Shown: positions 4,479 through 36,145, counted from the first letter of the stretch. The stretch is 39,087 bases of DNA from a virus (IMGVR_UViG_3300027732_000054:1-39087); one strand, 5' to 3'. A program made the numbers and translations. The notes: a model not told the origin generated them from the sequence alone.

Positions 4479-4521
4479 TATCGGCAGAAGGATTACAGTA
4501 GTTCAGTTAAGTTTATCCACA
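4479..4521 (-). promoter_or_regulatory. class I promoter + DnaA box
   Basis: TGTGGATAA-N7-TGAACTA-N14-CCGATA-N7-ATG(4471). Confidence 0.85.
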
Positions 4522-4636
4522 GGCTAAGAAGTAGACTCTACATTTCCACGAAGGCACGAACATATCAAAATGATATAAATGTGACGCTTGTGAGTACAGG
4601 GGGTAAGAGCCCCGATAAATATGTCCTCAACAAATG

Positions 4637-4650
4637 ACGGTGGCGGAAAG
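4637..4650 (+). repeat. ACGGTGGCGGAAAG motif copy 1
   Basis: Perfect 14-mer, 8 copies in window. Confidence 0.85.
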
Positions 4651-4856
4651 CAACTTGCGGATAGGAGATTCGCCCTCCCCCTCGTGCTCGTAATGGAAAA
4701 GCGCATACATCTAGAAGCGAAACGACTAGATGTTGAGAGGGAGGGAGGATGGAGCCATTTGAAAGGGTAAACCGTGGCATCTCCCACCATCCTTACGAAG
4801 AAGGCGAAACATTTCTTCCTCAATGGAAAGAACGGGGCTCACCAGCATAGAGACAA

Positions 4857-5072
4857 TCACACAGAGAGAGGACGACTAGCAAGAGAACCAAGGAACTCAT
4901 TGCCATCCATCTCCATCAACGCCCAGTAAGCATCTTTGTAAGAAGGGAACATTGATTCAAAAACAACTTCACCCGTGGCTTTATTCTCCAGCGCCCCCAT
5001 GGCCTCAGAGCCCCGCACAGGAGCGATGCGAATCAGGTAGACAAGTCCATTGAGGAGCGGCTGATGTTTCAT
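4857..5072 (-). CDS. hypothetical protein
   Basis: 71 aa ORF co-oriented with neighbours. Confidence 0.55.
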   Translation of the reverse strand: MKHQPLLNGLVYLIRIAPVRGSEAMGALENKATGEVVFESMFPSYKDAYWALMEMDGNEFLGSLASRPLSV

Positions 5073-5168
5073 GTGCGTACCTTACCCGTCAGCCCTTCGA
5101 GAAGCAAGTACCGGACAACCGGGGCTGCCCCTCACCTTTCCCCCAACGAAAGTCGGTGGGGGAAAGGG

Positions 5169-5396
5169 CTAGTCAATCCGCTGTGTACCGTCTGGTGTCC
5201 AATTATGACCAGCGCAGTCACTCTCCTGAAATCCGCAATACTCGCAAAACTCGCCAGTGGGGGTCTCCTCCGCAATCTCTATGGTCTCCTCAACAAAGCG
5301 AGATGAGAAAGAGTTCGGGCAGACCCGAAAGGCGAGGCGGACGAGGGCGGAGGCGAGCGTGAAGCGCGCATGGGCTGTGTGTGTGGGGGCTGTCAT
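5169..5396 (-). CDS. small Cys/His protein, leaderless
   Basis: ATG 5396 at +1 of class I promoter; CEYC...CAGH. Confidence 0.7.
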   Translation of the reverse strand: MTAPTHTAHARFTLASALVRLAFRVCPNSFSSRFVEETIEIAEETPTGEFCEYCGFQESDCAGHNWTPDGTQRID

Positions 5397-5403
5397 ACCC
5401 AAG

Positions 5404-5492
5404 TATCGGCTCAGTCCTTACATTAGTTCAGTAAAACTTATCCACAGATTGTGGATAAACTAGAGTGAACTAAAGTAACCGAACAACCGATA
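5404..5492. promoter_or_regulatory. divergent pair of class I promoters with inverted DnaA boxes
   Basis: TATCGG 5404, TAGTTCA 5424, TTATCCACA 5438, TGTGGATAA 5450, TGAACTA 5466, CCGATA 5487. Confidence 0.88.
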
Positions 5493-5499
5493 TACAAGC

Positions 5500-5691
5500 A
5501 TGCACCCCACCTACACCCCCTCCCCCCTTTGCGACGCTTGCGGTCTCCACGAGCCAACTATGGACTGGTACGACTACAACGAGTTCTTTTGGAACCTGTG
5601 CGACGAGTGCTTCGTGCGAGATGCCCTCATGGGGGGCGAGTGCGACTCCTCCTGCGACGGGGACTACGCCTGCGCCCACAACTCCCACTAG
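5500..5691 (+). CDS. zinc-ribbon microprotein, leaderless
   Basis: LCDACGLH...CDECF; ATG at +1; similar to 10342-10485. Confidence 0.8.
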   Translation: MHPTYTPSPLCDACGLHEPTMDWYDYNEFFWNLCDECFVRDALMGGECDSSCDGDYACAHNSH

Positions 5692-5924
5692 TGGGCAACC
5701 ACTCTGAGTGAGAAAACCACCGAGAGTGAGAGTCCCGCATCTCGAAGCGCCCCACCAACACGCTTAGATAAATCTATCTGAGCGATATTGGGGGTCGTAT
5801 GTGGCTAAAAGAGCGACAAAACTCCGAAATATTTGAAAATGCCGAAAATTCGCAAGCATTTCGTCCCCTATCAGGTCTTTTACTGCGAACGCAGAGCGTG
5901 ATTCTTCACCACTCTCCGTGAGGT

Positions 5925-6185
5925 CTAAAGGTGTATAGCACCTATTTCCTCAGGTGTGCTTTCCGACGGGGCTCGGCAAACCTTGATTTCCCATAGGGGT
6001 AGCCAGCCATTCCAGCCCTTCCCATCAACCCCCTTCAAGAGTATTTGGTCGGTGCGGTTCTTGTTCGGCACATAGACGAAGCGAGGTCCATGTTCTTTCA
6101 CTCGGTTACGGGTTCTCTTAGATGCGGTAGCCCCGTTTACTGTGACGATGAGTTCGGTTGGTTCGGTGATGTCGCTCAGGTTCAT
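5925..6185 (-). CDS. hypothetical protein
   Basis: TGATG coupling to upstream ORF. Confidence 0.7.
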   Translation of the reverse strand: MNLSDITEPTELIVTVNGATASKRTRNRVKEHGPRFVYVPNKNRTDQILLKGVDGKGWNGWLPLWEIKVCRAPSESTPEEIGAIHL

Positions 6186-6358
6186 CAGTCAACTTCTCCT
6201 ACTCTGATGCTTTCGCTGTCCCTTGTCATGCCCTTCATCAGCATCATGTACTGACCTGACCACGATATCGGGACTACCCGTGAGTGTTGCTTGTCGTCAT
6301 AGCCCGTCCATGTAATACGGAACTTGATTTGCTCTTCGTCTTCTATGTCGTTTTCCAT
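6185..6358 (-). CDS. hypothetical protein
   Basis: Probable start MENDIED; coupled downstream. Confidence 0.6.
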   Translation of the reverse strand: MENDIEDEEQIKFRITWTGYDDKQHSRVVPISWSGQYMMLMKGMTRDSESIRVGEVD

Positions 6359-6469
6359 GATGTCTTTCTGTCTCTTATAGGTAATGGAGAGTTTGCCAAC
6401 ACTGGAGTTGGTATCCATTGAGGGAAATACGCCCCGCTTCTGCGGTGTGATTGTTCCATAACTTGCGGG

Positions 6470-6769: not shown

Positions 6770-7116
6770 CAGACGCTCACCGTTGCTCGGTAGTGAGTAA
6801 GGACACGACTCGCCATATCGCTGGGTGTCGTGGTTTCCCATTTGGTGACCTGCTCGTAGATGGCGCTGATGGCGCTGTCGTTCAGTCGTTCCGTGAGAAA
6901 CAAGTTCCAGCCAGCCCCAGCACCGTGACAGTCAAGGACTGTGATGGAGTGGAAGTGACCCTTGTAGGTGTCCATTGTGACGAACCAGCCGTCATCGTTG
7001 CCATCTTGGTAGATGCGCTCAATGTCGTTGCGGTCTGCTTCAGACATAATGTCGTCAAGCGAGTTCCATGCTGAGATAGTTCCCGTGAGTGGGCGGTATG
7101 TGATGTTGATTTCCAT
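6769..7116 (-). CDS. hypothetical protein, leaderless; paralog of 14539-14928
   Basis: ATG 7116 at +1; shared FHS.T.LD..G.GAGWNLFL. Confidence 0.85.
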   Translation of the reverse strand: MEINITYRPLTGTISAWNSLDDIMSEADRNDIERIYQDGNDDGWFVTMDTYKGHFHSITVLDCHGAGAGWNLFLTERLNDSAISAIYEQVTKWETTTPSDMASRVLTHYRATVSV

Positions 7117-7123
7117 AGTTAGA

Positions 7124-7166
7124 TATCGGTTCATTCCTTATATTGGTTCAGTCAAAGTTATCCACA
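7124..7166 (-). promoter_or_regulatory. class I promoter + DnaA box
   Basis: TATCGG 7124, TGGTTCA 7144, TTATCCACA 7158. Confidence 0.85.
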
Positions 7167-7227
7167 GGGCAGATTATCGCCCTCAGGGACACTCCACAAC
7201 CGGGGCTTCCCGTGCTACATTGGGCTT

Positions 7228-7425: not shown

Positions 7426-7438
7426 AAATCGGGGCTCT

Positions 7439-7514: not shown

Positions 7515-7517
7515 AGA

Positions 7518-7551: not shown

Positions 7552-7562
7552 GGGGCTAACCC

Positions 7563-7706: not shown

Positions 7707-7737
7707 GTTTTCACCTCCATCCCCTGTCGTACCTAAG

Positions 7738-7780
7738 TATCGGTACAGGGATTACGATGGTTCACTGAAGTTTATCCACA
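7738..7780 (-). promoter_or_regulatory. class I promoter + DnaA box
   Basis: TATCGG 7738, TGGTTCA 7758, TTATCCACA 7772. Confidence 0.85.
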
Positions 7781-7784
7781 GGGG

Positions 7785-8320: not shown

Positions 8321-8351
8321 TTGGTCACCCCCATTCCCTGTCATGCCTAGA

Positions 8352-8440
8352 TATCGGAACGACCATCACTTTAGTTCAGTGAAAGTTATCCACAGCCTGT
8401 GGATAAATCTGAGTGAACTAGCGTAATGAGGAAACCGATA
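8352..8440. promoter_or_regulatory. divergent pair of class I promoters with inverted DnaA boxes
   Basis: TATCGG 8352, boxes 8386/8398, TGAACTA 8414, CCGATA 8435. Confidence 0.88.
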
Positions 8441-8447
8441 TTTAGAT

Positions 8448-8533
8448 GTAGCCCGCACGGCACGCCACCAACGCCCAGCGAACTCTGGGGGGGATATCTG
8501 GCAAGGAGGTCATTCCTCCGCAGTGTGGGCTAT
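8448..8533 (+). ncRNA. candidate structured ncRNA 1 (~86 nt)
   Basis: Starts at promoter +1, no ORF; 11 bp terminal stem GTAGCCCGCAC/GTGTGGGCTAT; internal stems. Confidence 0.6.
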
Positions 8534-9129: not shown

Positions 9130-9329
9130 TACTTTCCTTTCCTGATGATGTGGAGAATGTCTTGGCTCATGTTGAGACCGCCACCGAGAGCCTTCCAAAG
9201 AGCGTCTTTCACTTCTTTGGGAGTGTCGGCGGGTAGGTCATCCCAAGCCCTGATACCAGCACGAATGTCGTCATGGGTATCAAGAGCGTACTGGGCGTAC
9301 TGTTCTTCATAGGTGGTAGTTGTTTCCAT
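9129..9329 (-). CDS. hypothetical protein, leaderless
   Basis: ATG at +1 of class I promoter. Confidence 0.8.
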   Translation of the reverse strand: METTTTYEEQYAQYALDTHDDIRAGIRAWDDLPADTPKEVKDALWKALGGGLNMSQDILHIIRKGK

Positions 9330-9336
9330 GCTTAGG

Positions 9337-9426
9337 TATCGGACTGTCCATCACCTTAGTTCAGTCAGGTTTATCCACAGCCCTGTGGATAACTTTTGGT
9401 GAACTACCGTAATACCTATCCCGATA
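9337..9426. promoter_or_regulatory. divergent pair of class I promoters with inverted DnaA boxes
   Basis: TATCGG 9337, boxes 9371/9384, TGAACTA 9400, CCGATA 9421. Confidence 0.88.
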
Positions 9427-9433
9427 CTTGGGC

Positions 9434-9547
9434 ATGGAACTACTTGATTACATACTTGAGCCAGCAATTCCGTTCTTTGTGGTCGCTGGCTTGCTGTACC
9501 GCTTATTCCGAAACGAAATCAAAGACGCTTTTAGCGACGACCAATGA
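9434..9547 (+). CDS. 37 aa single-TM microprotein, leaderless (not in ORF track)
   Basis: MELLDYILEPAIPFFVVAGLLYRLFRNEIKDAFSDDQ; ATG at +1. Confidence 0.75.
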   Translation: MELLDYILEPAIPFFVVAGLLYRLFRNEIKDAFSDDQ

Positions 9548-9963: not shown

Positions 9964-10092
9964 TCAGTTCGGCTCCCTCATCAGTTCGTGAAGGTCAGAA
10001 CCGCATTGGTCGCATAGGGCATAGTCCCCGCAGTCAATGGTGACTCCCTCGGTTGTTTGGCATTGGTCGCAGGTGTTGTGTTCGTTGTTCAT
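9964..10092 (-). CDS. 42 aa zinc-ribbon microprotein, leaderless (not in ORF track)
   Basis: MNNEHNTCDQC...LCDQCG; ATG at +1. Confidence 0.78.
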   Translation of the reverse strand: MNNEHNTCDQCQTTEGVTIDCGDYALCDQCGSDLHELMREPN

Positions 10093-10099
10093 ACCTAGA

Positions 10100-10142
10100 T
10101 ATCGGAACAAAGATTACAGTGGTTCACCGAAGTTTATCCACA
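10100..10142 (-). promoter_or_regulatory. class I promoter + DnaA box
   Basis: TATCGG 10100, TGGTTCA 10120, box 10134. Confidence 0.85.
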
Positions 10143-10485: not shown

Positions 10486-10511
10486 GTTCACCCCCTTCCC
10501 TGTCACCTATG

Positions 10512-10567
10512 TATCAGTTCGGTTCTTACGATGGTTCAGTCCGTTTTATCCACAAGGGTTATCCACA
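10512..10567 (-). promoter_or_regulatory. class I promoter variant (CTGATA) + two tandem DnaA boxes
   Basis: TATCAG 10512, TGGTTCA 10532, boxes 10546 and 10559. Confidence 0.8.
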
Positions 10568-11060: not shown

Positions 11061-11089
11061 TTTTTCACCTCGCTTCCCTGTCATCTAAG

Positions 11090-11143
11090 TATCGGCTCAG
11101 TCATTACATTGGTTCAATCGGAGTTATCCACACCTGTGGATAA
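11090..11143 (-). promoter_or_regulatory. class I promoter + inverted DnaA box pair
   Basis: TATCGG 11090, TGGTTCA 11110, boxes 11124/11135. Confidence 0.85.
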
Positions 11144-11563: not shown

Positions 11564-11584
11564 TGTTTAACCTCCATACCCATG

Positions 11585-11611
11585 TATCGGTCTAGGGATT
11601 ATTTTAGTTCA
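11585..11611 (-). promoter_or_regulatory. class I promoter without DnaA box
   Basis: TATCGG 11585, TAGTTCA 11605; -35 TGA is the stop of the upstream gene. Confidence 0.75.
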
Positions 11612-11821
11612 GTCCAAGAGTGGCTTCAATATGTTGCGCAAGTCAAGGAGAGAGTCGGTCATTTCCGATGACGAACAGATGTTCGTGTTGCCGATGTCCT
11701 TCAGTACGCCATCAATAATCGTGAGTGACTTACGGATAGCGGTGATTTCTAAGTCCCGCTCCCCGACTGCCATCTCAACAATGGTTGCGGTGTCGTCAAT
11801 GATGTTGGATTCGTTTGTCAT
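11609..11821 (-). CDS. hypothetical protein
   Basis: 70 aa ORF in minus-strand operon. Confidence 0.7.
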   Translation of the reverse strand: MTNESNIIDDTATIVEMAVGERDLEITAIRKSLTIIDGVLKDIGNTNICSSSEMTDSLLDLRNILKPLLD

Positions 11822-12255: not shown

Positions 12256-12599
12256 TCCTCGTCCTCGTCGTATTCGTCCTCGTCCTCGCACCAGTCGCCC
12301 TGCCCGATGAGACTTGTGTAGCCTGCGTTCGGGTTCTCGTGGTCTGTGGTGACTGCGTTGATGAACTTCAGTCCACAGGACTCGTCCCACCAGACTTTCA
12401 GGGTGGCGAACATTTCCTCAGGAGTCCCCGTGAAAGTGCGGTCGGTACAATTAGTTCCGTTGTAGTTCTGGCGAAACCAGTCTGCTTGTTCCTCGTCCAT
12501 TGCCACATAGATTTTGTGGCAACCGTCAAAGGCTACGAGGATTGCGTCCTCAACAGCGGTTTCTACTCGGTCAAATAGTTCGTCAAGTGTTTTGGTCAT
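12252..12599 (-). CDS. hypothetical protein, leaderless; paralog of 29341-29676
   Basis: DGCHKIYVA.D.EQA.WF, SCGL.F..AV, PNAGY.SLI.QGD. Confidence 0.88.
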   Translation of the reverse strand: MTKTLDELFDRVETAVEDAILVAFDGCHKIYVAMDEEQADWFRQNYNGTNCTDRTFTGTPEEMFATLKVWWDESCGLKFINAVTTDHENPNAGYTSLIGQGDWCEDEDEYDEDEE

Positions 12600-12606
12600 G
12601 TCTAAG

Positions 12607-12661
12607 TATCGGCTCCGTCGTTACGCTAGTTCAGTCTGATTTATCCACAGGGTTATCCACA
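12607..12661 (-). promoter_or_regulatory. class I promoter + two tandem DnaA boxes
   Basis: TATCGG 12607, TAGTTCA 12627, boxes 12641/12653. Confidence 0.87.
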
Positions 12662-13013: not shown

Positions 13014-13235
13014 CTAGACTCGGATTTCTTTTTCAATCTCGTTGTAGATTTCTGCCATCGCTTCAACCACTCGTGTGCTGAGAATGTCTGCGAATGAGTC
13101 ATGGGCAATTTCGTCGGGTGCTTCGTTGTACCAGTTAAGGAGTGCTTGCCACTCTCCGATGTTTCTCGCATCATATGCGTCTGCGACTATTTGCCTGACT
13201 GCTTGTGTGAAGTTTGGATTTGCGGTGGTTTTCAT
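13014..13235 (-). CDS. hypothetical protein, leaderless
   Basis: ATG at +1 of class I promoter. Confidence 0.8.
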   Translation of the reverse strand: MKTTANPNFTQAVRQIVADAYDARNIGEWQALLNWYNEAPDEIAHDSFADILSTRVVEAMAEIYNEIEKEIRV

Positions 13236-13242
13236 ATCTAGG

Positions 13243-13282
13243 TATCAGGTTGGTCATTACTTTAGTTCAGTCGTTTTTTTTT
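13243..13282 (-). promoter_or_regulatory. class I promoter (CTGATA) with A-tract in place of DnaA box
   Basis: TATCAG 13243, TAGTTCA 13263, then GTCG-T9. Confidence 0.75.
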
Positions 13283-13420
13283 GAGCCTGTATGCGCTATC
13301 CGTGCGTGCGTAGAGCCCCGCACCTGCGTGCCGAGTGGAATGGGGGCGGAATGGAAACCCGGGGCTAGCGCGCCATCTGTGGGCGTGTGGGCGTGTGTGA
13401 TGTTTCGGGGAACGGCAATA

Positions 13421-13629: not shown

Positions 13630-13660
13630 GTTTTCACCTCCGTTCCCTGTCATGTCTAGG

Positions 13661-13703
13661 TATCGGTTGGGTCGTTACATTGGTTCAGCGGGATTTATCC
13701 ACA
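13661..13703 (-). promoter_or_regulatory. class I promoter + DnaA box
   Basis: TATCGG 13661, TGGTTCA 13681, box 13695. Confidence 0.85.
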
Positions 13704-14033: not shown

Positions 14034-14437
14034 TCTTCATCCCATTGGAATGGGGTGACGGTGATGACTCCTGTGCCATCGTGGTGAGAGAGAACGCCAG
14101 TCAGGTGGTCGGCATGAACGGTGAGTTCCAAACGCCATTCGGTGCCATTAGGCGTGATTGACTCCAGCAGTTTTTCGGGTGTTCGTGCGTGGAATGTTCC
14201 GCTGACTGGTCCATCCCATAGTGGGAAGCCTTCAATGCGAAACGGTTGGTTGGTTTCGGTGAACAAGTGTGCGGTGATGTTCTCAAAATCCTCAACTTGT
14301 GAGTCCCAGCAGTCTCCCCAGCATTCAGGGGCAACTTCCCAGTCTCCTGAGTCGTCGTTGTAGGTGACGCAGGTACAAGTATTAGTGATTGTGGCGGTGT
14401 ATGTTCCGCTCTCGGTGGGGATAATTTTTGTGGTCAT
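14030..14437 (-). CDS. hypothetical protein, leaderless
   Basis: ATG at +1; CTC...CWGDCW, SHHD. Confidence 0.82.
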   Translation of the reverse strand: MTTKIIPTESGTYTATITNTCTCVTYNDDSGDWEVAPECWGDCWDSQVEDFENITAHLFTETNQPFRIEGFPLWDGPVSGTFHARTPEKLLESITPNGTEWRLELTVHADHLTGVLSHHDGTGVITVTPFQWDEE

Positions 14438-14444
14438 ATCTACC

Positions 14445-14520
14445 TATCGGTATCGGCGTTATTTTAGTTCAGCGAAACTTATCCACATGGTGTGGATAAC
14501 TCTTGGCAGGGTGTGGATAA
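14445..14520 (-). promoter_or_regulatory. class I promoter + three DnaA boxes
   Basis: TATCGG 14445, TAGTTCA 14465, boxes 14479, 14491, 14512. Confidence 0.87.
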
Positions 14521-14538: not shown

Positions 14539-14928
14539 TCAGGCGATGAGACAGTCGCCATCAACGACAACCGTTTCCATGTATCGCATCAGCACCGCAT
14601 CACGCAAGTTGCTTGGCGTTCCCATGTTGTCCCATAGATAGACAAGTTCGTATATCTCCTCAATGGCTTCATCGGCAAGGTAGTTGCTCAGAAACAAGTT
14701 CCATCCAGCCCCGCTCCCAAACACATCAAGTGCGGTCATTGAGTGAAAGTAATCCAACCCGTCGGCGTGTCTAGTGGCGATAGCGACATGCCAGTCCCCA
14801 TTTTCGGGTGCGTCAATATACGAGCAGTCCAACCTGCCTCGCTCTTCTTCGGTCATTGTGTTATCCACATCACTCCACAGCGTGAGCGAATGTGAGAATG
14901 GGCGATAACAAATATGGATGATGGTCAT
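14539..14928 (-). CDS. hypothetical protein; paralog of 6769-7116
   Basis: ATGA overlap; GAGWNLFL motif. Confidence 0.82.
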   Translation of the reverse strand: MTIIHICYRPFSHSLTLWSDVDNTMTEEERGRLDCSYIDAPENGDWHVAIATRHADGLDYFHSMTALDVFGSGAGWNLFLSNYLADEAIEEIYELVYLWDNMGTPSNLRDAVLMRYMETVVVDGDCLIA

Positions 14929-15296: not shown

Positions 15297-15329
15297 GATG
15301 GGTACTCCCTTTCTGTGGGTGTATCTATC

Positions 15330-15366
15330 TATCGGATTGCTCGTTACATTAGTTCAGTCGTTTTTA
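15330..15366 (-). promoter_or_regulatory. class I promoter with A-tract, no DnaA box
   Basis: TATCGG 15330, TAGTTCA 15350, GTCGTTTTT. Confidence 0.75.
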
Positions 15367-15722
15367 TTCTTATGCCCAAACAGTCGGTTGAGCCACCCGC
15401 ACCCGCCGAGCCCCGCACCTGAGCGTGACGGCGTTTCGTTTTCTGGCAAAGAGTCATTCCAATGAGGGAGGTTTTGTTGGTGAACCATCTCTAGTAGTCC
15501 GTGTGGGTTCAGCGTATGTCGCCACACACGGTCACCACTATCCTCGTACAAGTCTAAGACGAAAGAGTCAATCTCGTAGTCGGCTGTAACCCACTCTCCA
15601 TCGGGGCTCTCAACCTGCGGGCAGTTTAGTAACTCCGCAATACCAATAGTCAAGTCACCGAGTTCCAAGTCAGTTGCGTCATCATCTGTAGTAAAGGTTA
15701 TGTTGATGTTATAGACAGCCAT
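15354..15722 (-). CDS. hypothetical acidic protein
   Basis: Probable start MAVYNINI after GGAGA; the longer track ORF runs through RNA hairpins. Confidence 0.65.
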   Translation of the reverse strand: MAVYNINITFTTDDDATDLELGDLTIGIAELLNCPQVESPDGEWVTADYEIDSFVLDLYEDSGDRVWRHTLNPHGLLEMVHQQNLPHWNDSLPENETPSRSGAGLGGCGWLNRLFGHKNKND

Positions 15723-15892: not shown

Positions 15893-16099
15893 CTAGAGAC
15901 CGTATAGTAGGTTCCCTGTCGCTTTTCTGAGTGTCTCGGCAAGTGAGTAGTACGACTTGCCCAACTCTTGGACTGTGATTATGCCCCAGTAGCAATCCTT
16001 GTCGTGGCTTGCGATGAGTTTCTGAACCTCAGCCATTGCGCTGATGAGTTCGGAAATGGTGAGTGCCTGCGTTGTGCGCTCGGCGTAGGTGGTGGTCAT
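15893..16099 (-). CDS. hypothetical protein, leaderless
   Basis: ATG at +1. Confidence 0.8.
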   Translation of the reverse strand: MTTTYAERTTQALTISELISAMAEVQKLIASHDKDCYWGIITVQELGKSYYSLAETLRKATGNLLYGL

Positions 16100-16106
16100 G
16101 TCTATG

Positions 16107-16196
16107 TATCGGCTTAGTGATTACGCTAGTTCACTACACTTTATCCACAGGGGTGTGGATAAGTCTGACTGAACCAATATAACTCCTAAACCGATA
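16107..16196. promoter_or_regulatory. divergent pair of class I promoters with inverted DnaA boxes
   Basis: TATCGG 16107, boxes 16141/16154, TGAACCA 16170, CCGATA 16191. Confidence 0.88.
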
Positions 16197-16203
16197 TACG
16201 ACT

Positions 16204-16410
16204 ATGACAGAATCCATCTATCCCGAAGTTGGCAAGGCTCACAACATCAGAGAGTTCAATCGCTCAGGCATCAAGGCTTTCGTTAGCGATGGTGACACTA
16301 AATGTCGCCGTTGCGATAGGCTCATTGCTGAAGGCGAAACTTTTAGTTGGGTTCGTGGCAAGGGTAACTACCACATCGGGAGTTGCCCCAAACCTGAACA
16401 GGAGAAGTAA
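16204..16410 (+). CDS. zinc-finger microprotein, leaderless
   Basis: CRRC..I..GE...W......H...C; ATG at +1. Confidence 0.8.
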   Translation: MTESIYPEVGKAHNIREFNRSGIKAFVSDGDTKCRRCDRLIAEGETFSWVRGKGNYHIGSCPKPEQEK

Positions 16411-17313: not shown

Positions 17314-17570
17314 TTCGCCAACAGCCCTGCTATTTCGTCGTAGCCCTGCGTGTACCCATTCTCAAACATTGCGATGAGTCCAGCCTTGACTTTTTCGTCG
17401 CCGTTGGGGTTGTCATTGTCCCCGAACACAATGGCAACGAGCCATAGTTCAGAAACATAATCCCAAGGCTCGGTGTCCTCAAGGGTGAACATTCCAACGA
17501 CTGCGTCGGCTGTACCGATTTCGTAGCCACGCTCGTATGCCTGCTGTGCGAGTTTCAAGTTGTTTGTCAT
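17310..17570 (-). CDS. hypothetical protein, leaderless
   Basis: ATG at +1; AY.RG..IG..DA shared with 27878-28144. Confidence 0.8.
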   Translation of the reverse strand: MTNNLKLAQQAYERGYEIGTADAVVGMFTLEDTEPWDYVSELWLVAIVFGDNDNPNGDEKVKAGLIAMFENGYTQGYDEIAGLLAK

Positions 17571-17577
17571 GTCTACC

Positions 17578-17614
17578 TATCGGCTCGGTCATTACTTTAG
17601 TTCAGTCGTTTTTT
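17578..17614 (-). promoter_or_regulatory. class I promoter with A-tract
   Basis: TATCGG 17578, TAGTTCA 17598, GTCGTTTTTT. Confidence 0.78.
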
Positions 17615-17652
17615 ATTTACGAACATTCGGTTTCGTGTTCGTCGTGGGTTCT

Positions 17653-17979: not shown

Positions 17980-18210
17980 GAAGCCCACCAGCGAGAGGGC
18001 GACTCTCCATCGGTTGCTCTCCATCTAGATAGAGAGCCGAAGCGTTCATAGTCCTTGCGGGTGCGTGTCGGGCAGAGGGTAGCGTGAGTGGTGGAGGGAC
18101 TGGGTACACCGCCTAGGACGGGTAGAGCCAGTATCGCATACTCAGAGGCGGTCGTAACCTTCAGAGGCTTGCGGTGCTATGTCCGCCCCCCGATGTTGCT
18201 GGTGGGCTAC
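17980..18210 (-). ncRNA. candidate structured ncRNA 2 (~230 nt)
   Basis: Starts GTAGCCC at promoter +1; perfect 11 bp terminal inverted repeat 17982-17992/18198-18208; nested stems. Confidence 0.68.
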
Positions 18211-18217
18211 ATCTAGA

Positions 18218-18272
18218 TATCGGGTTACTGCTTACGCTAGTTCAGTCAAAGTTATCCACAAGTTTATCCACA
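18218..18272 (-). promoter_or_regulatory. class I promoter + two tandem DnaA boxes
   Basis: TATCGG 18218, TAGTTCA 18238, boxes 18252/18264. Confidence 0.87.
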
Positions 18273-19162: not shown

Positions 19163-19563
19163 CGCCATTGCCCAACCCTCATCAGACGGAAGGGAATGTC
19201 CGCCAGCCGACTAAAGAACCGACGAACCCGACGAAGGGAACGCCAACCGATACCGCTGTGCCACAGTTTGATGTCATGCTGTTCGTAAAGTGCCCAAGGC
19301 TCGTTGTCAATCCAGTTCTGAATGAAAGCGTCCAAGTCTCGTGAATACTCAGGCGAAGTGAGGTATGCGTCCGTTACCGAACCCATGAAAGGCATACCGC
19401 TGGGGCGAGCCTGAATGGCAGGCAGACAATCTCGTTGCCAAGCCTCAAAGTTCTCCTCGTACTCAGAGGACTCTAAGTATTCGTCCTCTAAGGCTTCTAG
19501 TTCCTCTCCGTGTCGGAGACTGTCTTGGAAGGGCTGTTCTAACCATGCGTCGTAGTTGCTCAT
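19159..19563 (-). CDS. hypothetical protein, leaderless
   Basis: ATG at +1. Confidence 0.8.
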   Translation of the reverse strand: MSNYDAWLEQPFQDSLRHGEELEALEDEYLESSEYEENFEAWQRDCLPAIQARPSGMPFMGSVTDAYLTSPEYSRDLDAFIQNWIDNEPWALYEQHDIKLWHSGIGWRSLRRVRRFFSRLADIPFRLMRVGQWR

Positions 19564-19570
19564 ACATACC

Positions 19571-19606
19571 TATCGGTTTAGTCGTTACATTAGTTCAGTC
19601 GTTTTT
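19571..19606 (-). promoter_or_regulatory. class I promoter with A-tract
   Basis: TATCGG 19571, TAGTTCA 19591, GTCGTTTTT. Confidence 0.78.
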
Positions 19607-19867
19607 ATTCGGGTTACGGCTGATGAGGTCTATGACTGCGTCGTTCGGCGTAGCCCCGCGCCCAATGAACTGCGCTTTCTCACTCAGCCAAAACTCTTGA
19701 CACTCAGAGTCCTCGGATATTGCTTCTTCGGGTATTTCGTGACAGTTAGCAATAGCGAACCAAGCACCATCTTCGTATGCGCCCCCATAACGGGACTGCC
19801 GAACGACAATCGGGTACGGGTTGAACGGCAACGCCCGACCACCGCTGAGTACCGTCGCTAAGGTCAT
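19595..19867 (-). CDS. conserved phage hypothetical protein
   Basis: YPIVVRQSRYGGAYEDGAW...GRGATPNDA; ATGA overlap. Confidence 0.75.
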   Translation of the reverse strand: MTLATVLSGGRALPFNPYPIVVRQSRYGGAYEDGAWFAIANCHEIPEEAISEDSECQEFWLSEKAQFIGRGATPNDAVIDLISRNPNKND

Positions 19868-20688: not shown

Positions 20689-21107
20689 ACTGTCTCCCAA
20701 TACTCATCGTTGGCAAGTAGTTCGTGTGCTGACGCAATAGCCTCGGTGAGAGTGTGTTGTACGCAGTCAAGGTGGTCGTCGTTGTATAAATCAAACCAAG
20801 AGTTATTTATCCAATCAATGCGACCACTCTCGGTAGCCTCAAAAATTTCGTAGTCACTCTTTAGGTCGTATTGTGCCCATTGGTCACAGTAACGAATAAC
20901 TTCGTGACCCTCTGACCAATCGCGAGGGTTGTAAGCGAGATGGACTCTTTGTTCTCCGTCGGCGTAGATGTGAACGGTGCGTTCGCCATTACTGACGCTC
21001 GCCACAATGTCGTGGTGGTCTGCCGAGTGCGTGTACCAAGTAGCGTCCTCACGCCCTTCGGTTCGTTCGTCGGGTTGGTGCCAAGTGATATTGATGGTTG
21101 TTGTCAT
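20685..21107 (-). CDS. hypothetical protein, leaderless
   Basis: ATG at +1; WINNSWFDLY. Confidence 0.82.
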   Translation of the reverse strand: MTTTINITWHQPDERTEGREDATWYTHSADHHDIVASVSNGERTVHIYADGEQRVHLAYNPRDWSEGHEVIRYCDQWAQYDLKSDYEIFEATESGRIDWINNSWFDLYNDDHLDCVQHTLTEAIASAHELLANDEYWETV

Positions 21108-21114
21108 GAGTATG

Positions 21115-21169
21115 TATCGCTTCCGTCATTACGCTAGTTCAGCGTAGTTTATCCACAGGTTTATCCACA
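21115..21169 (-). promoter_or_regulatory. class I promoter (GCGATA) + two tandem DnaA boxes inside upstream CDS end
   Basis: TATCGC 21115, TAGTTCA 21135, boxes 21149/21161. Confidence 0.83.
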
Positions 21170-21588: not shown

Positions 21589-21996
21589 TCACCATTTTTC
21601 TTTTGGAGTTCCGAAAGGGTCTTTTTTGTCGGAGTCGCATACCCAATCGGGCTTCTCGGTCGGGTCGCATGCCCAATGCTGTCGCTTCACCCAACTACCC
21701 GTTGGCATCTGTACCCATACATCGCCAACAAGGGTGGCAGGATAAAGTTTGCTTCGTCCGTCAGTTTTTACCCATACGAGGCGTTTCTTACAATGAACGC
21801 AACCCAAGAGTGTTCCTATAGAGGCGTTCATAAACTCTTTGTAATCCTTAGAAATAGCCTCACCTTTACGATGAACCTCTCGCTTGAATAGATATGCGCC
21901 CTTGCGCTTGCCGTTTGACCACGGCTCACGGCGCATGATTGGATTTAGGGTGTGCTTGTCTTGCCCTGTCAAAGAGGAGTTGACGGTGGTGGTCAT
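21589..21996 (-). CDS. hypothetical Cys/His protein, leaderless
   Basis: ATG 21996 at +1; CVHCKKRLVWVKT...HWAC. Confidence 0.78.
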   Translation of the reverse strand: MTTTVNSSLTGQDKHTLNPIMRREPWSNGKRKGAYLFKREVHRKGEAISKDYKEFMNASIGTLLGCVHCKKRLVWVKTDGRSKLYPATLVGDVWVQMPTGSWVKRQHWACDPTEKPDWVCDSDKKDPFGTPKEKW

Positions 21997-22003
21997 ATCC
22001 ATG

Positions 22004-22046
22004 TATCGGTTCTCTCGTTACGGTAGTTCAGCGAAGTTTATCCACA
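22004..22046 (-). promoter_or_regulatory. class I promoter + DnaA box
   Basis: TATCGG 22004, TAGTTCA 22024, box 22038. Confidence 0.85.
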
Positions 22047-22759: not shown

Positions 22760-22808
22760 ATATACAGCGAACTGTCTAATCCGTCTATCCACAACCCCCT
22801 GTGGATAA
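22760..22808 (-). promoter_or_regulatory. class II promoter overlapped by DnaA boxes
   Basis: GGTTGT-N12-TAG-ACA-GTTCG-N8-ATG; CTATCCACA 22785, TGTGGATAA 22800. Confidence 0.68.
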
Positions 22809-24450: not shown

Positions 24451-24758
24451 TGCTCTACTCCAATCCCGATGTGGGCGAGTGCTTCCTGAATGTCATGGAA
24501 GTAATATCCGTGACAGATGTACCAGCCGTTGTCGTTGGCGATAACCGTCCAAGAGGCGTAGGCGTGAAAGTTCTTACCCTCACGGACTGCCACCACTTCC
24601 CAAGTGGAGAAACTTGCGCCACCCCATTGTGAGGGTTCGGCAGGTCGGAAGTCCTGAACCTTGCGGAACGCAATGACAGTTGCCTCGTTGTAGAGGCGTG
24701 TGCCTACTGCGATGTCGGCAGTGGTGTGGTCATATTCGGTGATTGTTTCAGTGGTCAT
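24447..24758 (-). CDS. hypothetical protein, leaderless
   Basis: ATG at +1; YASW...GYYF..I.EA. Confidence 0.8.
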   Translation of the reverse strand: MTTETITEYDHTTADIAVGTRLYNEATVIAFRKVQDFRPAEPSQWGGASFSTWEVVAVREGKNFHAYASWTVIANDNGWYICHGYYFHDIQEALAHIGIGVEQ

Positions 24759-24765
24759 ACATACC

Positions 24766-24808
24766 TATCGGGTTGGTGATTTTTTTAGTTCAGTCGGAGT
24801 TATCCACA
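24766..24808 (-). promoter_or_regulatory. class I promoter + DnaA box
   Basis: TATCGG 24766, TAGTTCA 24786, box 24800. Confidence 0.85.
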
Positions 24809-25673: not shown

Positions 25674-25730
25674 TCAATATAGATTTATTTGAGATTGTTT
25701 GCTGAGTAGGTAGCGGTGGATATGTCTAGG

Positions 25731-25785
25731 TATCGGTTTGATGATTACGCTAGTTCAGTAGTATTTATCCACAGCCTGTGGAAAA
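25731..25785 (-). promoter_or_regulatory. class I promoter + DnaA boxes, tandem upstream of class II
   Basis: TATCGG 25731, TAGTTCA 25751, box 25765, TGTGGAAAA 25777; ATA at +1. Confidence 0.8.
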
Positions 25786-27458: not shown

Positions 27459-27523
27459 TGTACGGCAAACTTTCTTTAGGAATGTTTACCTTGGTTATGT
27501 GGGCGTTCGGTAGCCCATCTATG

Positions 27524-27579
27524 TATCGGTCTAACTCTTACATTAGTTCAGTGAAAGTTATCCACATAGGTGTGGACAA
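27524..27579 (-). promoter_or_regulatory. class I promoter + DnaA boxes, tandem upstream of class II
   Basis: TATCGG 27524, TAGTTCA 27544, box 27558, TGTGGACAA 27571. Confidence 0.8.
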
Positions 27580-30210: not shown

Positions 30211-30323
30211 ATTTACAGTGAACAGCCTAATGTTGAGTAACACAACCCGTTCGGTGGATTTGTCTAAGTATCGGTTAGGGAATTACCGTAGTTCACTGAA
30301 ACTTATCCACAGCGTGTGGATAA
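30211..30323 (-). promoter_or_regulatory. tandem class II (30211-30247) and class I (30269-30311) promoters + inverted DnaA boxes
   Basis: ACAACC 30242, TATCGG 30269, TAGTTCA 30289, boxes 30303/30315. Confidence 0.82.
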
Positions 30324-30479: not shown

Positions 30480-30559
30480 TGTTGTGATTGCTACTAATAG
30501 ACAGTTCACTGTTGTAGGAAATAAAAAACGACTGAACCAAAATAATCACTAATCCGATA
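30480..30559 (+). promoter_or_regulatory. tandem class II and class I (A-tract) promoters
   Basis: TGTTGT-N12-TAG-ACA-GTTCA at 30480; AAAAAACGAC-TGAACCA 30533-N14-CCGATA 30554-N7-ATG. Confidence 0.8.
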
Positions 30560-30566
30560 GGGAGTT

Positions 30567-30950
30567 ATGAACACACTTACTATGCCCGAAGCAACAGCCA
30601 TTGCCATTATGGAATGGGCTAAGAATAAACTTGCCACCGTCGGCTACTTGGAGTTCTCCGACGATTGGTGGGAGTCCTACGACAACGATTGGGATATCAA
30701 CATTTGGCGTTCCGATATGAGCGAGGAAATCCGTGTCAATGCCTACCCGATGACATTCACTAATGGTGAATGGAATACTGACTTCTCTAACTGGGTGAGT
30801 TTGGGGACTCTCCGTGAGCCTGTTTCTTGGCAAGACGGACATTCGTGCGACCAATGCGGTGACCCGATGGGTGGCAAGTATGACGGTGACCAGCCAACTT
30901 TCTATGGCGAAGATGGTGTTGCTCATCTCCGCTGTACGCCCATTGAATAA
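30567..30950 (+). CDS. hypothetical protein, leaderless
   Basis: ATG at +1; C-terminal CDQC...HLRC. Confidence 0.8.
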   Translation: MNTLTMPEATAIAIMEWAKNKLATVGYLEFSDDWWESYDNDWDINIWRSDMSEEIRVNAYPMTFTNGEWNTDFSNWVSLGTLREPVSWQDGHSCDQCGDPMGGKYDGDQPTFYGEDGVAHLRCTPIE

Positions 30951-34117: not shown

Positions 34118-34192
34118 GTGTCGTTAGTCACTTAGGTTGTGATTACGCCTATCTGTTCTTATTATCAACTATCAAGTAAACGAAAGGGAAAT

Positions 34193-34585
34193 ATGACTAC
34201 GACGAACATTGTCCGCAAGCCAAGTGGTGTTATTGATTTTGACGCATACAAAGGGCTAGAGGGAAGTATCGGACTAACGGGCATGACCTTCACCGTCAAG
34301 GTGATTGACGCTCGCCAGTCCTTTGGACGACTAGACCTCTGCGTTGAGCCTCTTCACGGCGAAGGCTCTCGTTGGATGGAATACCGCAAGGTGGAACTCA
34401 AGAGCGAGCCAGTGCGTTCAGAAATCACCACAACAGAAGTAACGACAGTCCGAGAGCAGGTTGCTCAACGAGCGATTGAGGCTTCTCGGGGAAATGGGTC
34501 AAGTAACACTGACCTCATTCAGCAACTGCTGAACCAAATAAACAACGGCAAGATTGCCACACAAACAAAGGAAACAATCAAATGA
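34193..34585 (+). CDS. hypothetical protein
   Basis: SD AAGGGA; V.VIDARQSFGRLD..V.P..G.G..W. Confidence 0.75.
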   Translation: MTTTNIVRKPSGVIDFDAYKGLEGSIGLTGMTFTVKVIDARQSFGRLDLCVEPLHGEGSRWMEYRKVELKSEPVRSEITTTEVTTVREQVAQRAIEASRGNGSSNTDLIQQLLNQINNGKIATQTKETIK

Positions 34586-34923
34586 AGCGTATCGTATTTG
34601 AGAACCCCACCGTCGCCAAGCGTGGACGCAGTGGCGGGGCTGTACAAGAGTTCATCACCAAACTGAGCGAGACTCCTGATAAGTGGGCTGTCTATACCCG
34701 TAGTGCCAACCACATCTCCTACTACTACACAGTGGCGAGCAAGATGGGTAACCTCAAAATCGCCGTTCGTGCGAATAGCGATGGCAAGACTCATACCGTT
34801 TACATGATGTACTTGGGAGTGGAAGCAACCAAGACTCGTGTTGCGGAGAAGGCGAACAAGAAGGCGAACAAGATGGTAGTCGTCAAGAAGGCGACTGCTA
34901 AGAAAGTCACCGTCAAGAAGTGA
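34582..34923 (+). CDS. basic protein with Lys/Ala-rich tail, putative DNA-binding
   Basis: P.KWAV; C-terminal KKANKM..KKATAKKVTVKK. Confidence 0.7.
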   Translation: MKRIVFENPTVAKRGRSGGAVQEFITKLSETPDKWAVYTRSANHISYYYTVASKMGNLKIAVRANSDGKTHTVYMMYLGVEATKTRVAEKANKKANKMVVVKKATAKKVTVKK

Positions 34924-34928
34924 TTGTG

Positions 34929-34954
34929 TCAGGGGTGGGGAAACCTGCCCCTGA
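34929..34954 (+). terminator. GNRA-capped hairpin after gene
   Basis: TCAGGGGTGGG-GAAA-CCTGCCCCTGA. Confidence 0.55.
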
Positions 34955-34970
34955 TAAATCCATCTAGTCG

Positions 34971-35007
34971 GGTTGTTATTACAATAACTAGGCTGTTCAC
35001 TGAAGGT
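34971..35007 (+). promoter_or_regulatory. class II promoter (leadered)
   Basis: GGTTGT-N12-TAG-GCT-GTTCA; SD AAGGGGA before ATG 35036. Confidence 0.78.
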
Positions 35008-35035
35008 ATAACCACTACTACTAAAGGGGACTACT

Positions 35036-35770
35036 ATGCCGAACTGGTGCTATAACCGAATGAATGTTACGGGCGACCGTGACTCACTAGTCAAACTCAC
35101 TGAAGCGATTACTCGTAAGCACGACTCGTCGCTCGCTGAGACAACGATGGGCGTTGAGCAAGTGGACTACGACCTATCTGTCTTGTTCCCCGTTCCTGAT
35201 GAACTCCGAATAACGGCGATGTTCTTTAATACCGAAACCGACGACCCTGAATACCAAGAACTTCTCAAGAAGTACGAAGCGAACAAGGCGAAGTACGGTC
35301 ACACTACTTGGTACGACTGGGCTATCAACAACTGGGGTACGAAGTGGTCGCCTCGCATTGAGGAGTGGACTATCAACGACTACCCTAATGGTAGCGAAAT
35401 CTATGCGTACTACGAGACTGCGTGGTCGCCTGCTGACGGACTTATCCGTGAAGTGAGTAGGCAGTTCCCCACACTCCTATTCACAGTTTCGTCTGATGAG
35501 GAAGGTCGCTCATTCTCTTGCGTAATGGCGTTCAGTAAAGGCGAGATGGTCGCTGAGGCTGGTTGCGAACTAGACGCTAATAAAGTTCCTGAGCAGTTCC
35601 GTGAGGCTTATGCGAGGATAGACAAGGAAATAGAGACTGGCACAAGTGACAGAAACTATGACGCTTGGGACGAGATGAGCGAACTTGACAGCGATGTTCT
35701 CGGCTGGTTGGAGACTCAAGTGAACAACCGACTGGTTGAGTTGGGGCTATTACCGAAGTTGAGCGTATGA
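35036..35770 (+). CDS. DUF1281/YubB-like (Api92-like ferredoxin-fold) protein
   Basis: MPNWCYN, WYDW...NWGTKW, YETAWSP. Confidence 0.85.
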   Translation: MPNWCYNRMNVTGDRDSLVKLTEAITRKHDSSLAETTMGVEQVDYDLSVLFPVPDELRITAMFFNTETDDPEYQELLKKYEANKAKYGHTTWYDWAINNWGTKWSPRIEEWTINDYPNGSEIYAYYETAWSPADGLIREVSRQFPTLLFTVSSDEEGRSFSCVMAFSKGEMVAEAGCELDANKVPEQFREAYARIDKEIETGTSDRNYDAWDEMSELDSDVLGWLETQVNNRLVELGLLPKLSV

Positions 35771-35785
35771 CCCGTAGGTCACCCG

Positions 35786-36043
35786 TCAGTATTTGGGAGC
35801 AGACTTCTTCTTGGGCTTACCCTCTACGACGGCTTCTTCAGCAGGGGCTTCCTCTGCTACGGCTTCTTCAGTGACGACTTCCTCACTAGGTACTTCAGCG
35901 GACGGGGCTTCCTCTACTACGGGGACAGTCTCGGCAACGGGTGCTACCTCTAAGTGTCCACAGTTCTCGTCGTGGGTGTGTTCCTCGGCTACGGCACGGG
36001 CCAAGTTCTTTGCCTCTCGCTCTTGGGGGGTAAGTTTACGCAT
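35786..36043 (-). CDS. low-complexity Glu/Ala/Val-rich protein
   Basis: Start MRKLTPQE after GAGG; EEAP/EEAV repeats; HTHDENCGH. Confidence 0.62.
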   Translation of the reverse strand: MRKLTPQEREAKNLARAVAEEHTHDENCGHLEVAPVAETVPVVEEAPSAEVPSEEVVTEEAVAEEAPAEEAVVEGKPKKKSAPKY

Positions 36044-36102
36044 GATAGAAACCTCGCTAGTTGTAAGTGTGGATACCATGATACCTAACTTATCCCCAAC
36101 CC

Positions 36103-36145
36103 TGTGGATAACCGCCACTGAACTAATGTAATCACCAAACCGATA
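36103..36145 (+). promoter_or_regulatory. class I promoter + DnaA box
   Basis: TGTGGATAA 36103, TGAACTA 36119, CCGATA 36140; degenerate boxes at 36068 and 36090. Confidence 0.86.

What the first reader, a model, noticed from the sequence alone, without database searches (positions are those of the whole stretch)
4479..36145. Regulon of 31 fixed-geometry promoters, 25 with a perfect DnaA box at -42 to -50: candidate DnaA-coupled phage expression system
Seen: TGTGGATAA-N7-TGAACYA-N14-CCGATA-N7-[+1] recurs with invariant spacing. The -10 elements are at 4479, 5404, 5487, 7124, 7738, 8352, 8435, 9337, 9421, 10100, 10512, 11090, 11585, 12607, 13243, 13661, 14445, 15330, 16107, 16191, 17578, 18218, 19571, 21115, 22004, 24766, 25731, 27524, 30269, 30554 and 36140. 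The spacer usually has RTAA 2 nt after the -35. In 25 of 31 a perfect box sits exactly 7 bp upstream of the -35, always in the same orientation relative to transcription. Established: TTATCCACA is the high-affinity DnaA box, and DnaA can act as a transcription factor (e.g. Caulobacter gcrA, lambda pR). TGAAC resembles ECF sigma -35 elements; CCGATA is the core of the sigma28/WhiG -10 (GCCGATAA). Inference: the phage uses host DnaA (or its own DnaA domain IV-like protein) as a position-specific activator with an alternative sigma factor, tying dozens of accessory genes to host replication state. I know of no described phage regulon built this way.
Basis: partly seen in the sequence, partly recalled or inferred. 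Interest (0 to 1): 0.93.

Follow-up and report, generated by a model that had tools for sequence, protein, structure and literature searches.

The report
DnaA-boxed WhiG-type promoter array in phage
An uncultured phage, likely of Acidimicrobiia actinobacteria, repeats one promoter-like sequence 31 times before its small accessory genes, 25 times with a perfect site for the host replication starter DnaA at the same distance, so these genes are likely read by the host's WhiG (sigma-28) polymerase and likely tuned by DnaA, while related phages carry ordinary housekeeping-type promoters before some of the same genes.

Summary
Observation confirmed: 31 cores TGAACYA-N14-CCGATA; 25 have TGTGGATAA exactly 7 bp upstream; 22 have ATG 7 bp downstream (predicted leaderless). 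The window is a 39-kb piece of a ~150-kb WhiB-carrying phage family, likely infecting Ilumatobacteraceae. The core has WhiG (sigma-28) geometry. WhiG is in 50 of 53 small host-family genomes; SigD/ShbA, the ECF alternative, passes its cut-off in 0 of 53. The host family shows CTCAAC-N16-CCGATA before c-di-GMP genes, but I found no such promoter in the small genomes. The window has 35 perfect DnaA boxes; five host genomes have 1-11 each. A near-identical phage has the same array rewritten throughout (-35 changed, box shifted 1 bp); other relatives use sigmaA-type cores. The box is optional and overlaps a conserved A-tract, so activation is unproven; a DnaA sink or a phage-coded factor remain (about 60% of the genome is unseen). 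No start-site or binding data. The scan has already noted DnaA-boxed phage promoters and sigma-28 phage promoters separately on other DNA. I found no paper on either as a phage regulon.

The parts
4469..4521 (-). cassette 1: box + core + ATG (68-aa gene, then SNF2 helicase)
5394..5446 (-). cassette 2: box + core + ATG; divergent pair with cassette 3
5450..5502 (+). cassette 3: box + core + ATG
7114..7166 (-). cassette 4: box + core + ATG (115 aa; its G003 orthologue has a TTGACA promoter)
7728..7780 (-). cassette 5: box + core, 24-nt leader with SD-like GGAGG
8342..8394 (-). cassette 6: box + core + ATG; divergent pair with 7
8398..8450 (+). cassette 7: box + core, no ATG at +1
9327..9379 (-). 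cassette 8: box + core + ATG; divergent pair with 9
9384..9436 (+). cassette 9: box + core + ATG
10090..10142 (-). cassette 10: box + core + ATG
10502..10567 (-). cassette 11: box + core (CTGATA), leadered; tandem second box 10559-10567
11080..11143 (-). cassette 12: box + core, leadered; inverted second box 11135-11143
11575..11627 (-). cassette 13: no box; core + ATG of a 5-codon frame, gene at +14
12597..12661 (-). cassette 14: box + core + ATG; tandem second box 12653-12661
13233..13285 (-). cassette 15: A-tract instead of box; core (CTGATA) + ATG
13651..13703 (-). cassette 16: box + core + ATG
14435..14520 (-). cassette 17: box + core + ATG; inverted boxes 14491-14499 and 14512-14520
14861..14869 (-). 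perfect DnaA box with no core behind it
15320..15372 (-). cassette 18: GAATAAAAA instead of box; core, 26-nt leader
16097..16149 (-). cassette 19: box + core + ATG; divergent pair with 20
16154..16206 (+). cassette 20: box + core + ATG
17568..17620 (-). cassette 21: A-tract instead of box; core + ATG
18208..18272 (-). cassette 22: box + core, no ATG at +1; tandem second box 18264-18272
19561..19613 (-). cassette 23: GAATAAAAA instead of box; core + ATG
21105..21169 (-). cassette 24: box + core (GCGATA) + ATG; tandem second box 21161-21169
21994..22046 (-). cassette 25: box + core + ATG
22800..22808 (+). perfect DnaA box with no core behind it
24756..24808 (-). cassette 26: box + core + ATG
25721..25773 (-). 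cassette 27: box + core; leader holds a second-class (sigmaA-like) cassette
27514..27566 (-). cassette 28: box + core; leader holds a second-class cassette
30259..30323 (-). cassette 29: box + core, no ATG at +1; inverted box 30315-30323
30517..30569 (+). cassette 30: A-tract instead of box; core + ATG
36103..36155 (+). cassette 31: box + core + ATG (165-aa protein with HTH-like leads, then AAA_5 ATPase)

Best explanation
The 31 copies are likely promoters read by the host RNA polymerase carrying WhiG, the sigma-28 factor of Ilumatobacteraceae, and the box at -50 to -42 likely binds host DnaA, which would boost these promoters and at the same time draw DnaA away from the host origin. Shown: the sequence, its fixed spacings, the ATG at the predicted +1, the match to the published WhiG spacing, and WhiG, RsiG and diguanylate cyclases in the likely host family. 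If so, these genes would fire when c-di-GMP is low (WhiG free of RsiG) and DnaA is available, and would fade as new phage genomes, each with 35 or more boxes plus an oriC-like cluster, dilute DnaA. The array appears to derive from the family's sigmaA-type leaderless cassettes and to be kept uniform by copying between cassettes.
For: Geometry: TGAA-N16-NCCGATA equals the reported WhiG2 spacing T(A/C)AA-N16-GCCGATAA (bioRxiv 10.64898/2026.01.14.699351). Host: WhiB in 12 of 12 related records; the sister phage's ferredoxin has 52 of its 80 best genome hits labelled Acidimicrobiia or below and 18 more labelled Actinomycetota. WhiG over cut-off in 50 of 53 small host-family genomes, RsiG and GGDEF in 5 of 5, SigD/ShbA over cut-off in 0 of 53. 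In 61 host-family genomes CTCAAC-Nx-CCGATA peaks at N16, the phage's spacing: 32 against 21 and 12 at the same codon phase (p=0.006; p=3e-5 after removing 13 copies of one conserved sequence and one duplicate each), with copies 7 nt before starts of GGDEF, HDOD and glycosyltransferase genes. SigmaA-type sites are not above chance in 4200-24000 (13 against 16.5). DnaA: 35 boxes in 39 kb against 1-11 in five whole host genomes; 15 boxes in 330 bp just beyond the window's end in the sister phage; host oriC boxes and DnaA RDHTTV signature fit (the meaning of the signature is recalled). Spacing is kept while the spacer sequence is free: 47% identity at free positions of 21 orthologous cassettes against 81% at four-fold sites, yet one box distance per genome.
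Against: No transcript start or binding data (contigs only). No native leaderless promoter of this form in small host genomes (0 of 30 loci looked like gene starts); their N16 hits lie mostly inside ORFs and TGAAC shows no N16 excess (11 of 48); none before RsiG or GGDEF genes there. Before 25 host flagellin genes, 6 have TGAAC with a spacer 2 bp shorter than the phage's, 4 have N16-17 type sites, 15 neither. The box is absent from 6 of 31 (9 of 30 in G001) and toggles at orthologous promoters while the ATAA stays in register. G002 has box-like sites on only 8 of 43 cassettes, overlapping the -35 or inverted, and lacks the C of the conserved CGA. Five larger relatives have 1-4 boxes in 130-160 kb. 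Each genome is pure for one cassette type, as a phage-coded reader would give. About 60% of the genome is unseen; the host rests on one gene of the sister phage, whose best hit is labelled Kiloniellales.
Confidence: 0.45

Rival explanations
1. A phage-coded, lineage-specific factor (a sigma-28-like sigma, or a sigma-region-4 / WhiB-like adaptor) reads the core; DnaA boxes are added on top. Each lineage keeps its own promoter dialect because only that dialect works with its own factor.
For: Window 31 of 31 TG-type, G001 30 of 30 (A/C/G)C-type with the upstream element 1 bp further out, no mixed contig among those examined, although 15 conserved genes are 94% identical. The phage core has extra fixed bases (YA..RTAA) not seen in the host examples. 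G002 and G036/G037 keep AA-N19-GA(C)A but change both hexamers, and G002 encodes two stand-alone sigma-4 proteins. The WhiB at the window's left end is a divergence outlier (69-76% against 87-99% for neighbours).
Against: No sigma region 2 in 31 related records, 6 of them at least 90% complete, nor with a host-sigma profile over 3.6 Mb of phage loci; no WhiG relative in viral contigs, though with only two peptide patterns; no stand-alone sigma-4 in the window or G001. The complete records that I read or saw in part carry other cores, so their lack of a sigma says little.
Confidence: 0.25
2. Host WhiG reads the promoters, but the fixed element is an A-tract (UP-like, for the RNA polymerase alpha tail); the DnaA box is written over it as a sink that starves the host origin, and DnaA is neutral or represses.
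For: Box-less copies keep (G/A)AATAAA in the box's register in both strains; sigmaA-type relatives have A-tracts upstream of the -35, as PeSL cassettes do (PMC2839356). Ten further boxes, tandem, inverted or free, add capacity. In G002 the box-like site overlaps the -35. The window alone has three times or more the perfect boxes of a host chromosome.
Against: A sink needs no single orientation or promoter link, yet 33 of 35 boxes lie at or beside cassettes and 25 in one register.
Confidence: 0.22
3. A host ECF40 sigma (SigD/ShbA type, GTAAC-N17-18-CGAT) reads the core.
For: AAC to CGAT is 17 bp, which fits the consensus in PMC12019637.
Against: 0 of 53 small host-family genomes pass the SigD/ShbA cut-off, 9 weak hits; three of five genomes listed have only three group-1/2 sigmas and WhiG.
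Confidence: 0.04
4. The 9-mer is bound by a phage protein with DnaA-like specificity, not by host DnaA.
For: Relatives carry their own repeated words, such as GTAGATAAGT 67 times in G007.
Against: No DnaA domain IV over cut-off in 31 records; the one weak hit is a shadow frame over a 488-aa ORF. The word is the exact bacterial consensus and recurs with variants in an oriC-like cluster.
Confidence: 0.04

Closest known systems
WhiG/FliA (sigma-28) promoters of Actinomycetota (WhiG2 T(A/C)AA-N16-GCCGATAA; WhiG1 CTCA-N16-17-GCCGAACT; bioRxiv 10.64898/2026.01.14.699351, passages and section 5; PMC8325347, passages)
   Same: Same -35 to -10 spacing, central CGA in all but 2 of 31 copies, NNAA at -35; the likely host has WhiG, RsiG and GGDEF proteins.
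   Different: On a phage; -35 is TGAA (not T(A/C)AA or CTCA); no G before CCGA and no final A; extra fixed YA..RTAA; mostly leaderless; DnaA box upstream, which those passages do not describe.
DnaA as a transcription factor (E. coli dnaA, nrdAB; Caulobacter gcrA, ftsZ; lambda ori activation; PMC8203912, passages; lambda pR seen only as a reference title in PMC3017604)
   Same: Perfect DnaA boxes in promoter regions; activation or repression both have precedent.
   Different: Here 25 promoters share one exact position, the core is not sigma70-type, and nothing has been tested.
PeSL cassettes of T4-type phages RB49/phi1 (PMC2839356, abstract and section 13)
   Same: Dozens of repeated promoter cassettes before small unknown genes in a variable region, with an AT-rich upstream part and signs of exchange between copies.
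   Different: PeSLs are sigma70-type, carry stem-loops and Shine-Dalgarno sites; these are sigma-28-type, mostly leaderless and DnaA-boxed.
ECF40 SigD/ShbA promoters (PMC12019637, passages)
   Same: AAC-N17-CGAT spacing.
   Different: -35 is TGAAC, not GTAAC; the sigma was not found in the likely host family.

Membership tests
WhiG (sigma-28) promoter | 16-bp spacer between a 4-bp -35 and the 8-bp -10 | tested here: met
   TGAA-N16-NCCGATA in 31 of 31
WhiG (sigma-28) promoter | central CGA of the -10 | tested here: met
   CGA in 29 of 31, TGA in 2
WhiG (sigma-28) promoter | -35 equal to T(A/C)AA or CTCA | tested here: not met
   TGAA in the window, (A/C/G)CAA in G001: one base off; CTGAAC not enriched at N16 in small hosts. 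So it is filed as WhiG-type, not as a proven member.
WhiG (sigma-28) promoter | WhiG present in the host | tested here: met
   50 of 53 small Ilumatobacteraceae-family genomes; the host itself is inferred
WhiG (sigma-28) promoter | same motif at native host targets | tested here: inconclusive
   N16 excess and GGDEF/HDOD examples in the family; none in small genomes; flagellin sites mixed
WhiG (sigma-28) promoter | WhiG-dependent transcription from the predicted +1 | not testable with these tools
   only assembled contigs of two runs were available
DnaA-regulated promoter | consensus DnaA box in the promoter | tested here: met
   25 of 31
DnaA-regulated promoter | host DnaA uses this box | tested here: inconclusive
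   host oriC holds TTATCCACA and one-mismatch variants; RDHTTV signature kept; binding not measured
DnaA-regulated promoter | output changes with DnaA | not testable with these tools
   needs bench work
ECF40 (SigD/ShbA) promoter | GTAAC -35 and cognate sigma in the host | tested here: not met
   -35 is TGAAC; 0 of 53 over cut-off
sigmaA promoter | TTGNNN-N17-TANNNT | tested here: not met
   no TANNNT register fits the column profile and the ATG; 13 sites against 16.5 by chance
PeSL cassette | sigma70-like promoter | tested here: not met
PeSL cassette | stem-loop terminator within each cassette | tested here: inconclusive
   28 terminator-like sites against 18.4 in shuffles over 4200-24000; not mapped cassette by cassette
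PeSL cassette | exchange between copies | tested here: inconclusive
   best within-window match 10.6 of 16 free positions against 9.65 +/- 0.19 in 500 shuffles; weak in G001

The most novel reading that the evidence does not exclude
A phage AND-gate built only from host parts: about 31 transcription units need both free WhiG (low c-di-GMP) and DnaA bound one fixed distance upstream, so the accessory programme runs only in hosts in the right lifestyle and replication state and shuts itself off as replicating phage genomes titrate DnaA. Lineages of this family swap the whole array between sigmaA and sigma-28 wiring, and between sigma-28 dialects, while keeping the genes.
Probability: 0.25. Interest if true: 0.88.

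Novelty: new variant of a known kind. Interest (0 to 1): 0.66.

Why it matters
Phage early genes are assumed to use the housekeeping sigma. If these run on WhiG with DnaA, the phage reads two host state signals with no regulator of its own, and DnaA acts with a sigma-28 holoenzyme, for which I saw no precedent in the papers read. The 31 natural variants and the sister phage's shifted set are a ready test panel for DnaA position effects and for what WhiG does in streamlined, unflagellated Acidimicrobiia. Even as a mere sink, 35 boxes in 39 kb would be a way to block host replication. Interest is tempered because both halves recur elsewhere in this scan and nothing is tested.

Tried and rejected
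ECF40 was my first reading and was dropped. Phage sigma or DnaA: none by Pfam in 31 records, by host-sigma profile, by WhiG scan (weak) or by a profile of the sigma-like family of L141; the conserved sigma70_r4_2 hit beside the primase is an N-terminal HTH. The first host counts were chance-like and the reversed-pattern control is biased; the first N14-18 test (p=1e-7) ignored codon phase and was replaced by the N13/N19 control. RsiG, GGDEF and pilin upstream regions of small hosts gave no convincing motif. Two RNA-labelled runs held only 0.05 of the words and are contigs; they say nothing on starts, expression or habitat. Attempts to extend the genome past G001 failed. Collection scans for the bare core (40 and 33 of 64 parts) gave singletons, except G001, G032 and one coding repeat. 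No isolate phage matched the AAA protein.


Full report
1. Observation. Every listed site is present. The 31 cores read TGAACYA-N14-CCGATA (28 exact -10s); 25 have TGTGGATAA ending 7 bp upstream; 28 have RTAA two bases after the -35; 22 have ATG exactly 7 nt after the -10. The whole pattern occurs 23 times against 0 in 100 shuffles, the box 35 times against 0.25. The ten other boxes are four tandem, four inverted and two free copies. Column information is high at the box, -34 to -28, -25 to -22 and -13 to -8, and low in the two spacers, whose lengths do not vary. The cassettes head short genes, nearly all without a family; of 42 proteins scanned, Pfam names DUF932, SNF2, DUF1281_C, AAA_5, DUF3846 and a weak DUF732.

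2. What the DNA is. The record is a 39-kb virus contig. Its AAA and DUF932 proteins find 80 and 40 loci in viral contigs, with complete relatives of 148-160 kb. WhiB occurs in 12 of 12 records and at the window's left end; WhiB marks actinophages (PMC6802176, passages). The ferredoxin of the near-identical G001 has 52 of its 80 best genome hits labelled Acidimicrobiia or below (mostly Ilumatobacteraceae), 18 Actinomycetota, 10 other or unlabelled, the best one Kiloniellales; the scan covered 9 of 64 parts. The host is therefore an inference from one gene. The exact pattern was found in one other viral contig and in 15 metagenome contigs besides the window's own.

3. Which sigma. No sigmaA register fits. 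Two published consensuses fit the spacing: ECF40, GTAAC-N17-18-CGAT (PMC12019637, passages), and WhiG, T(A/C)AA-N16-GCCGATAA or CTCA-N16-17-GCCGAACT (bioRxiv 10.64898/2026.01.14.699351, passages and section 5; PMC8325347, passages). Three of five host-family genomes list just four sigmas, three of group 1/2 and one WhiG. WhiG passes its cut-off in 50 of 53 small genomes, SigD/ShbA in 0 of 53; RsiG and GGDEF are in 5 of 5. In 61 family genomes CTCAAC-Nx-CCGATA gives 21, 3, 12, 32, 7, 11, 12 matches for N13 to N19. N13, N16 and N19 share codon phase; N16 exceeds them with p=0.006, or 3e-5 after dropping 13 copies of one conserved sequence (recalled as 16S rRNA, not tested) and one duplicate at N16 and at N19. 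Some N16 copies stand 7 nt before GGDEF, HDOD, glycosyltransferase and CoiA starts, the kind of target reported for WhiG. Against: in 54 small genomes the N16 hits inspected were mostly in ORFs, CTGAAC had no excess, and 0 of 30 leaderless candidates looked real; flagellin promoters were mixed. So the core is WhiG-type with a -35 one base off; that the host's WhiG reads it is likely, not shown.

4. Relatives rewrite the array. G001 aligns over most of the window, at 82-96% in the longer blocks, and has 30 cassettes (A/C/G)CAACYA-N14-CCGATA, with the upstream element one base further out in 30 of 30; 21 carry a box. At 21 orthologous promoters the free positions are 47% identical (33% for any pair) while four-fold sites of 15 genes are 81% identical. 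Boxes are gained and lost between orthologues, but ATAA keeps its register. Window cassettes resemble one another more than shuffled columns do (10.6 against 9.65 +/- 0.19 of 16), a sign of copying. The 15 other contigs, chosen by the TG pattern, held no G001-type copy. G002 has 43 cassettes AAATCC-N15-17-GACA(G/A)-N7-ATG, and G036/G037 a similar set; AA-N19-GA(T/C)A peaks in the window (24), G001 (27) and G002 (44) and not in G003. G003 has TTGACA-N17-TANNNT before orthologues of cassettes 4, 26 and 30, and several more distant lineages have sigmaA-type leaderless cassettes. In the AAA tree (31 rows picked from 81) window+G001, G002+G036, G003+G004 and G035 form one supported clade, unresolved inside; sigmaA-type cores in several other branches suggest they came first, which I did not test formally.

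5. DnaA. The window holds more perfect boxes than five host genomes of 1.7-4.8 Mb (10, 10, 11, 1, 3). Five larger relatives hold 1-4; G001 33, G002 18, G003 10, G004 3, G005 10. About 400 bp past the window's end G001 has 15 boxes (up to one mismatch) in 330 bp, and four relatives have similar clusters: an oriC-like site that makes host DnaA the natural ligand. No DnaA domain IV was found in 31 records. DnaA can activate or repress (PMC8203912, passages). One orientation and one distance per genome, kept under free spacer sequence, argue for a contact with polymerase; the optional box, the persistent A-tract and the different geometry in G002 (8 of 43, overlapping the -35) and G005 (3 of 26) argue that the position may belong to the A-tract.

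6. Phage-coded reader. No sigma region 2 was found, but only about 60 of some 150 kb of this phage are known. Genome-wide purity of dialects, the stand-alone sigma-4 proteins of G002 and the divergent WhiB keep this rival alive.

7. Literature and scan. Full-text searches gave 0 papers for DnaA box + phage + promoter + leaderless, DnaA boxes + bacteriophage genome + titration + promoters, DnaA box + phage + actinobacteriophage, phage + promoters + sigma28 + host alternative sigma and phage + WhiG + promoter + early genes; two searches listed 3 and 16 papers, seen as listings (one, PMC3017604, read in passages), none describing such a regulon by title or abstract start. The library lacks most subscription journals. 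PeSL cassettes are the architectural precedent (PMC2839356, abstract and section 13). PMC9205884 (passages) added nothing. Earlier notes of this scan report DnaA-boxed phage promoters (64 findings) and sigma-28-type phage promoters (43 findings) on other DNA; a word search for the combination gave none. These notes are unchecked and are not counted as support.

8. Verdict. Real and far beyond chance. Best reading: a host-WhiG-type, mostly leaderless promoter array with host DnaA bound upstream as booster and sink (0.45). New variant of known kinds; interest 0.66.

Noticed in passing
window 17926-17957, 22318-22349, 25643-25674, 27428-27459, 29101-29132 (-); 30962-30993, 31603-31634, 32729-32760, 36652-36683 (+): Second cassette class, 9 copies (0.02 by chance): AGGTTGT..GTTYAMT, with ATG 6 nt behind in the 8 inspected. 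SigmaA spacing, but the -11 base is T instead of A; also in G001.
   Followed up: partly
window 548-35909: AGCCCCG occurs 60 times against 3.3 by chance, densest in 4-20 kb.
   Followed up: partly
L141 2501-2543: A cellular-looking contig (DeaD helicase, UDP-glucose dehydrogenase, glycosyltransferase) holds one complete window-type cassette, 31 of 32 nt equal to a phage copy, upstream of a Macro-domain gene and two divergent sigma-like genes with no relatives in the phage loci: a captured phage cassette, or possibly a host sensor of infection.
   Followed up: partly
L004 12900-13230 (G001 about 11950-12280), L005 10880-11200: oriC-like DnaA-box cluster behind the AAA gene and its 494-aa neighbour, followed by a gene with HA and HTH domains.
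   Followed up: partly
L160 5832-6086 and L158 13866-14084 (G002): Two stand-alone sigma region-4 proteins, one 46% identical to host RpoD region 4.
   Followed up: partly
window 11848-12255 (-): DUF6214-like gene (atlas score 0.92) present in the window and missing at that place in G001.
   Followed up: partly
window 28-243 (+): WhiB-like gene, far more diverged from G001 than its neighbours.
   Followed up: partly
G007 27-61 kb; G004 36-58 kb: Other lineage-specific repeats: GTAGATAAGT 67 times (two mismatches from a DnaA box) and GTGAACGCAT 12 times.
   Followed up: no
L051 (G031): A third non-sigmaA leaderless core, TAGGAAACTCCAGCC..GGTATAG, 8 copies.
   Followed up: no
L704, L709-L712, L714: Host flagellin genes with TGAAC-N14-CCGA upstream, a possible second sigma-28 dialect.
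   Followed up: no
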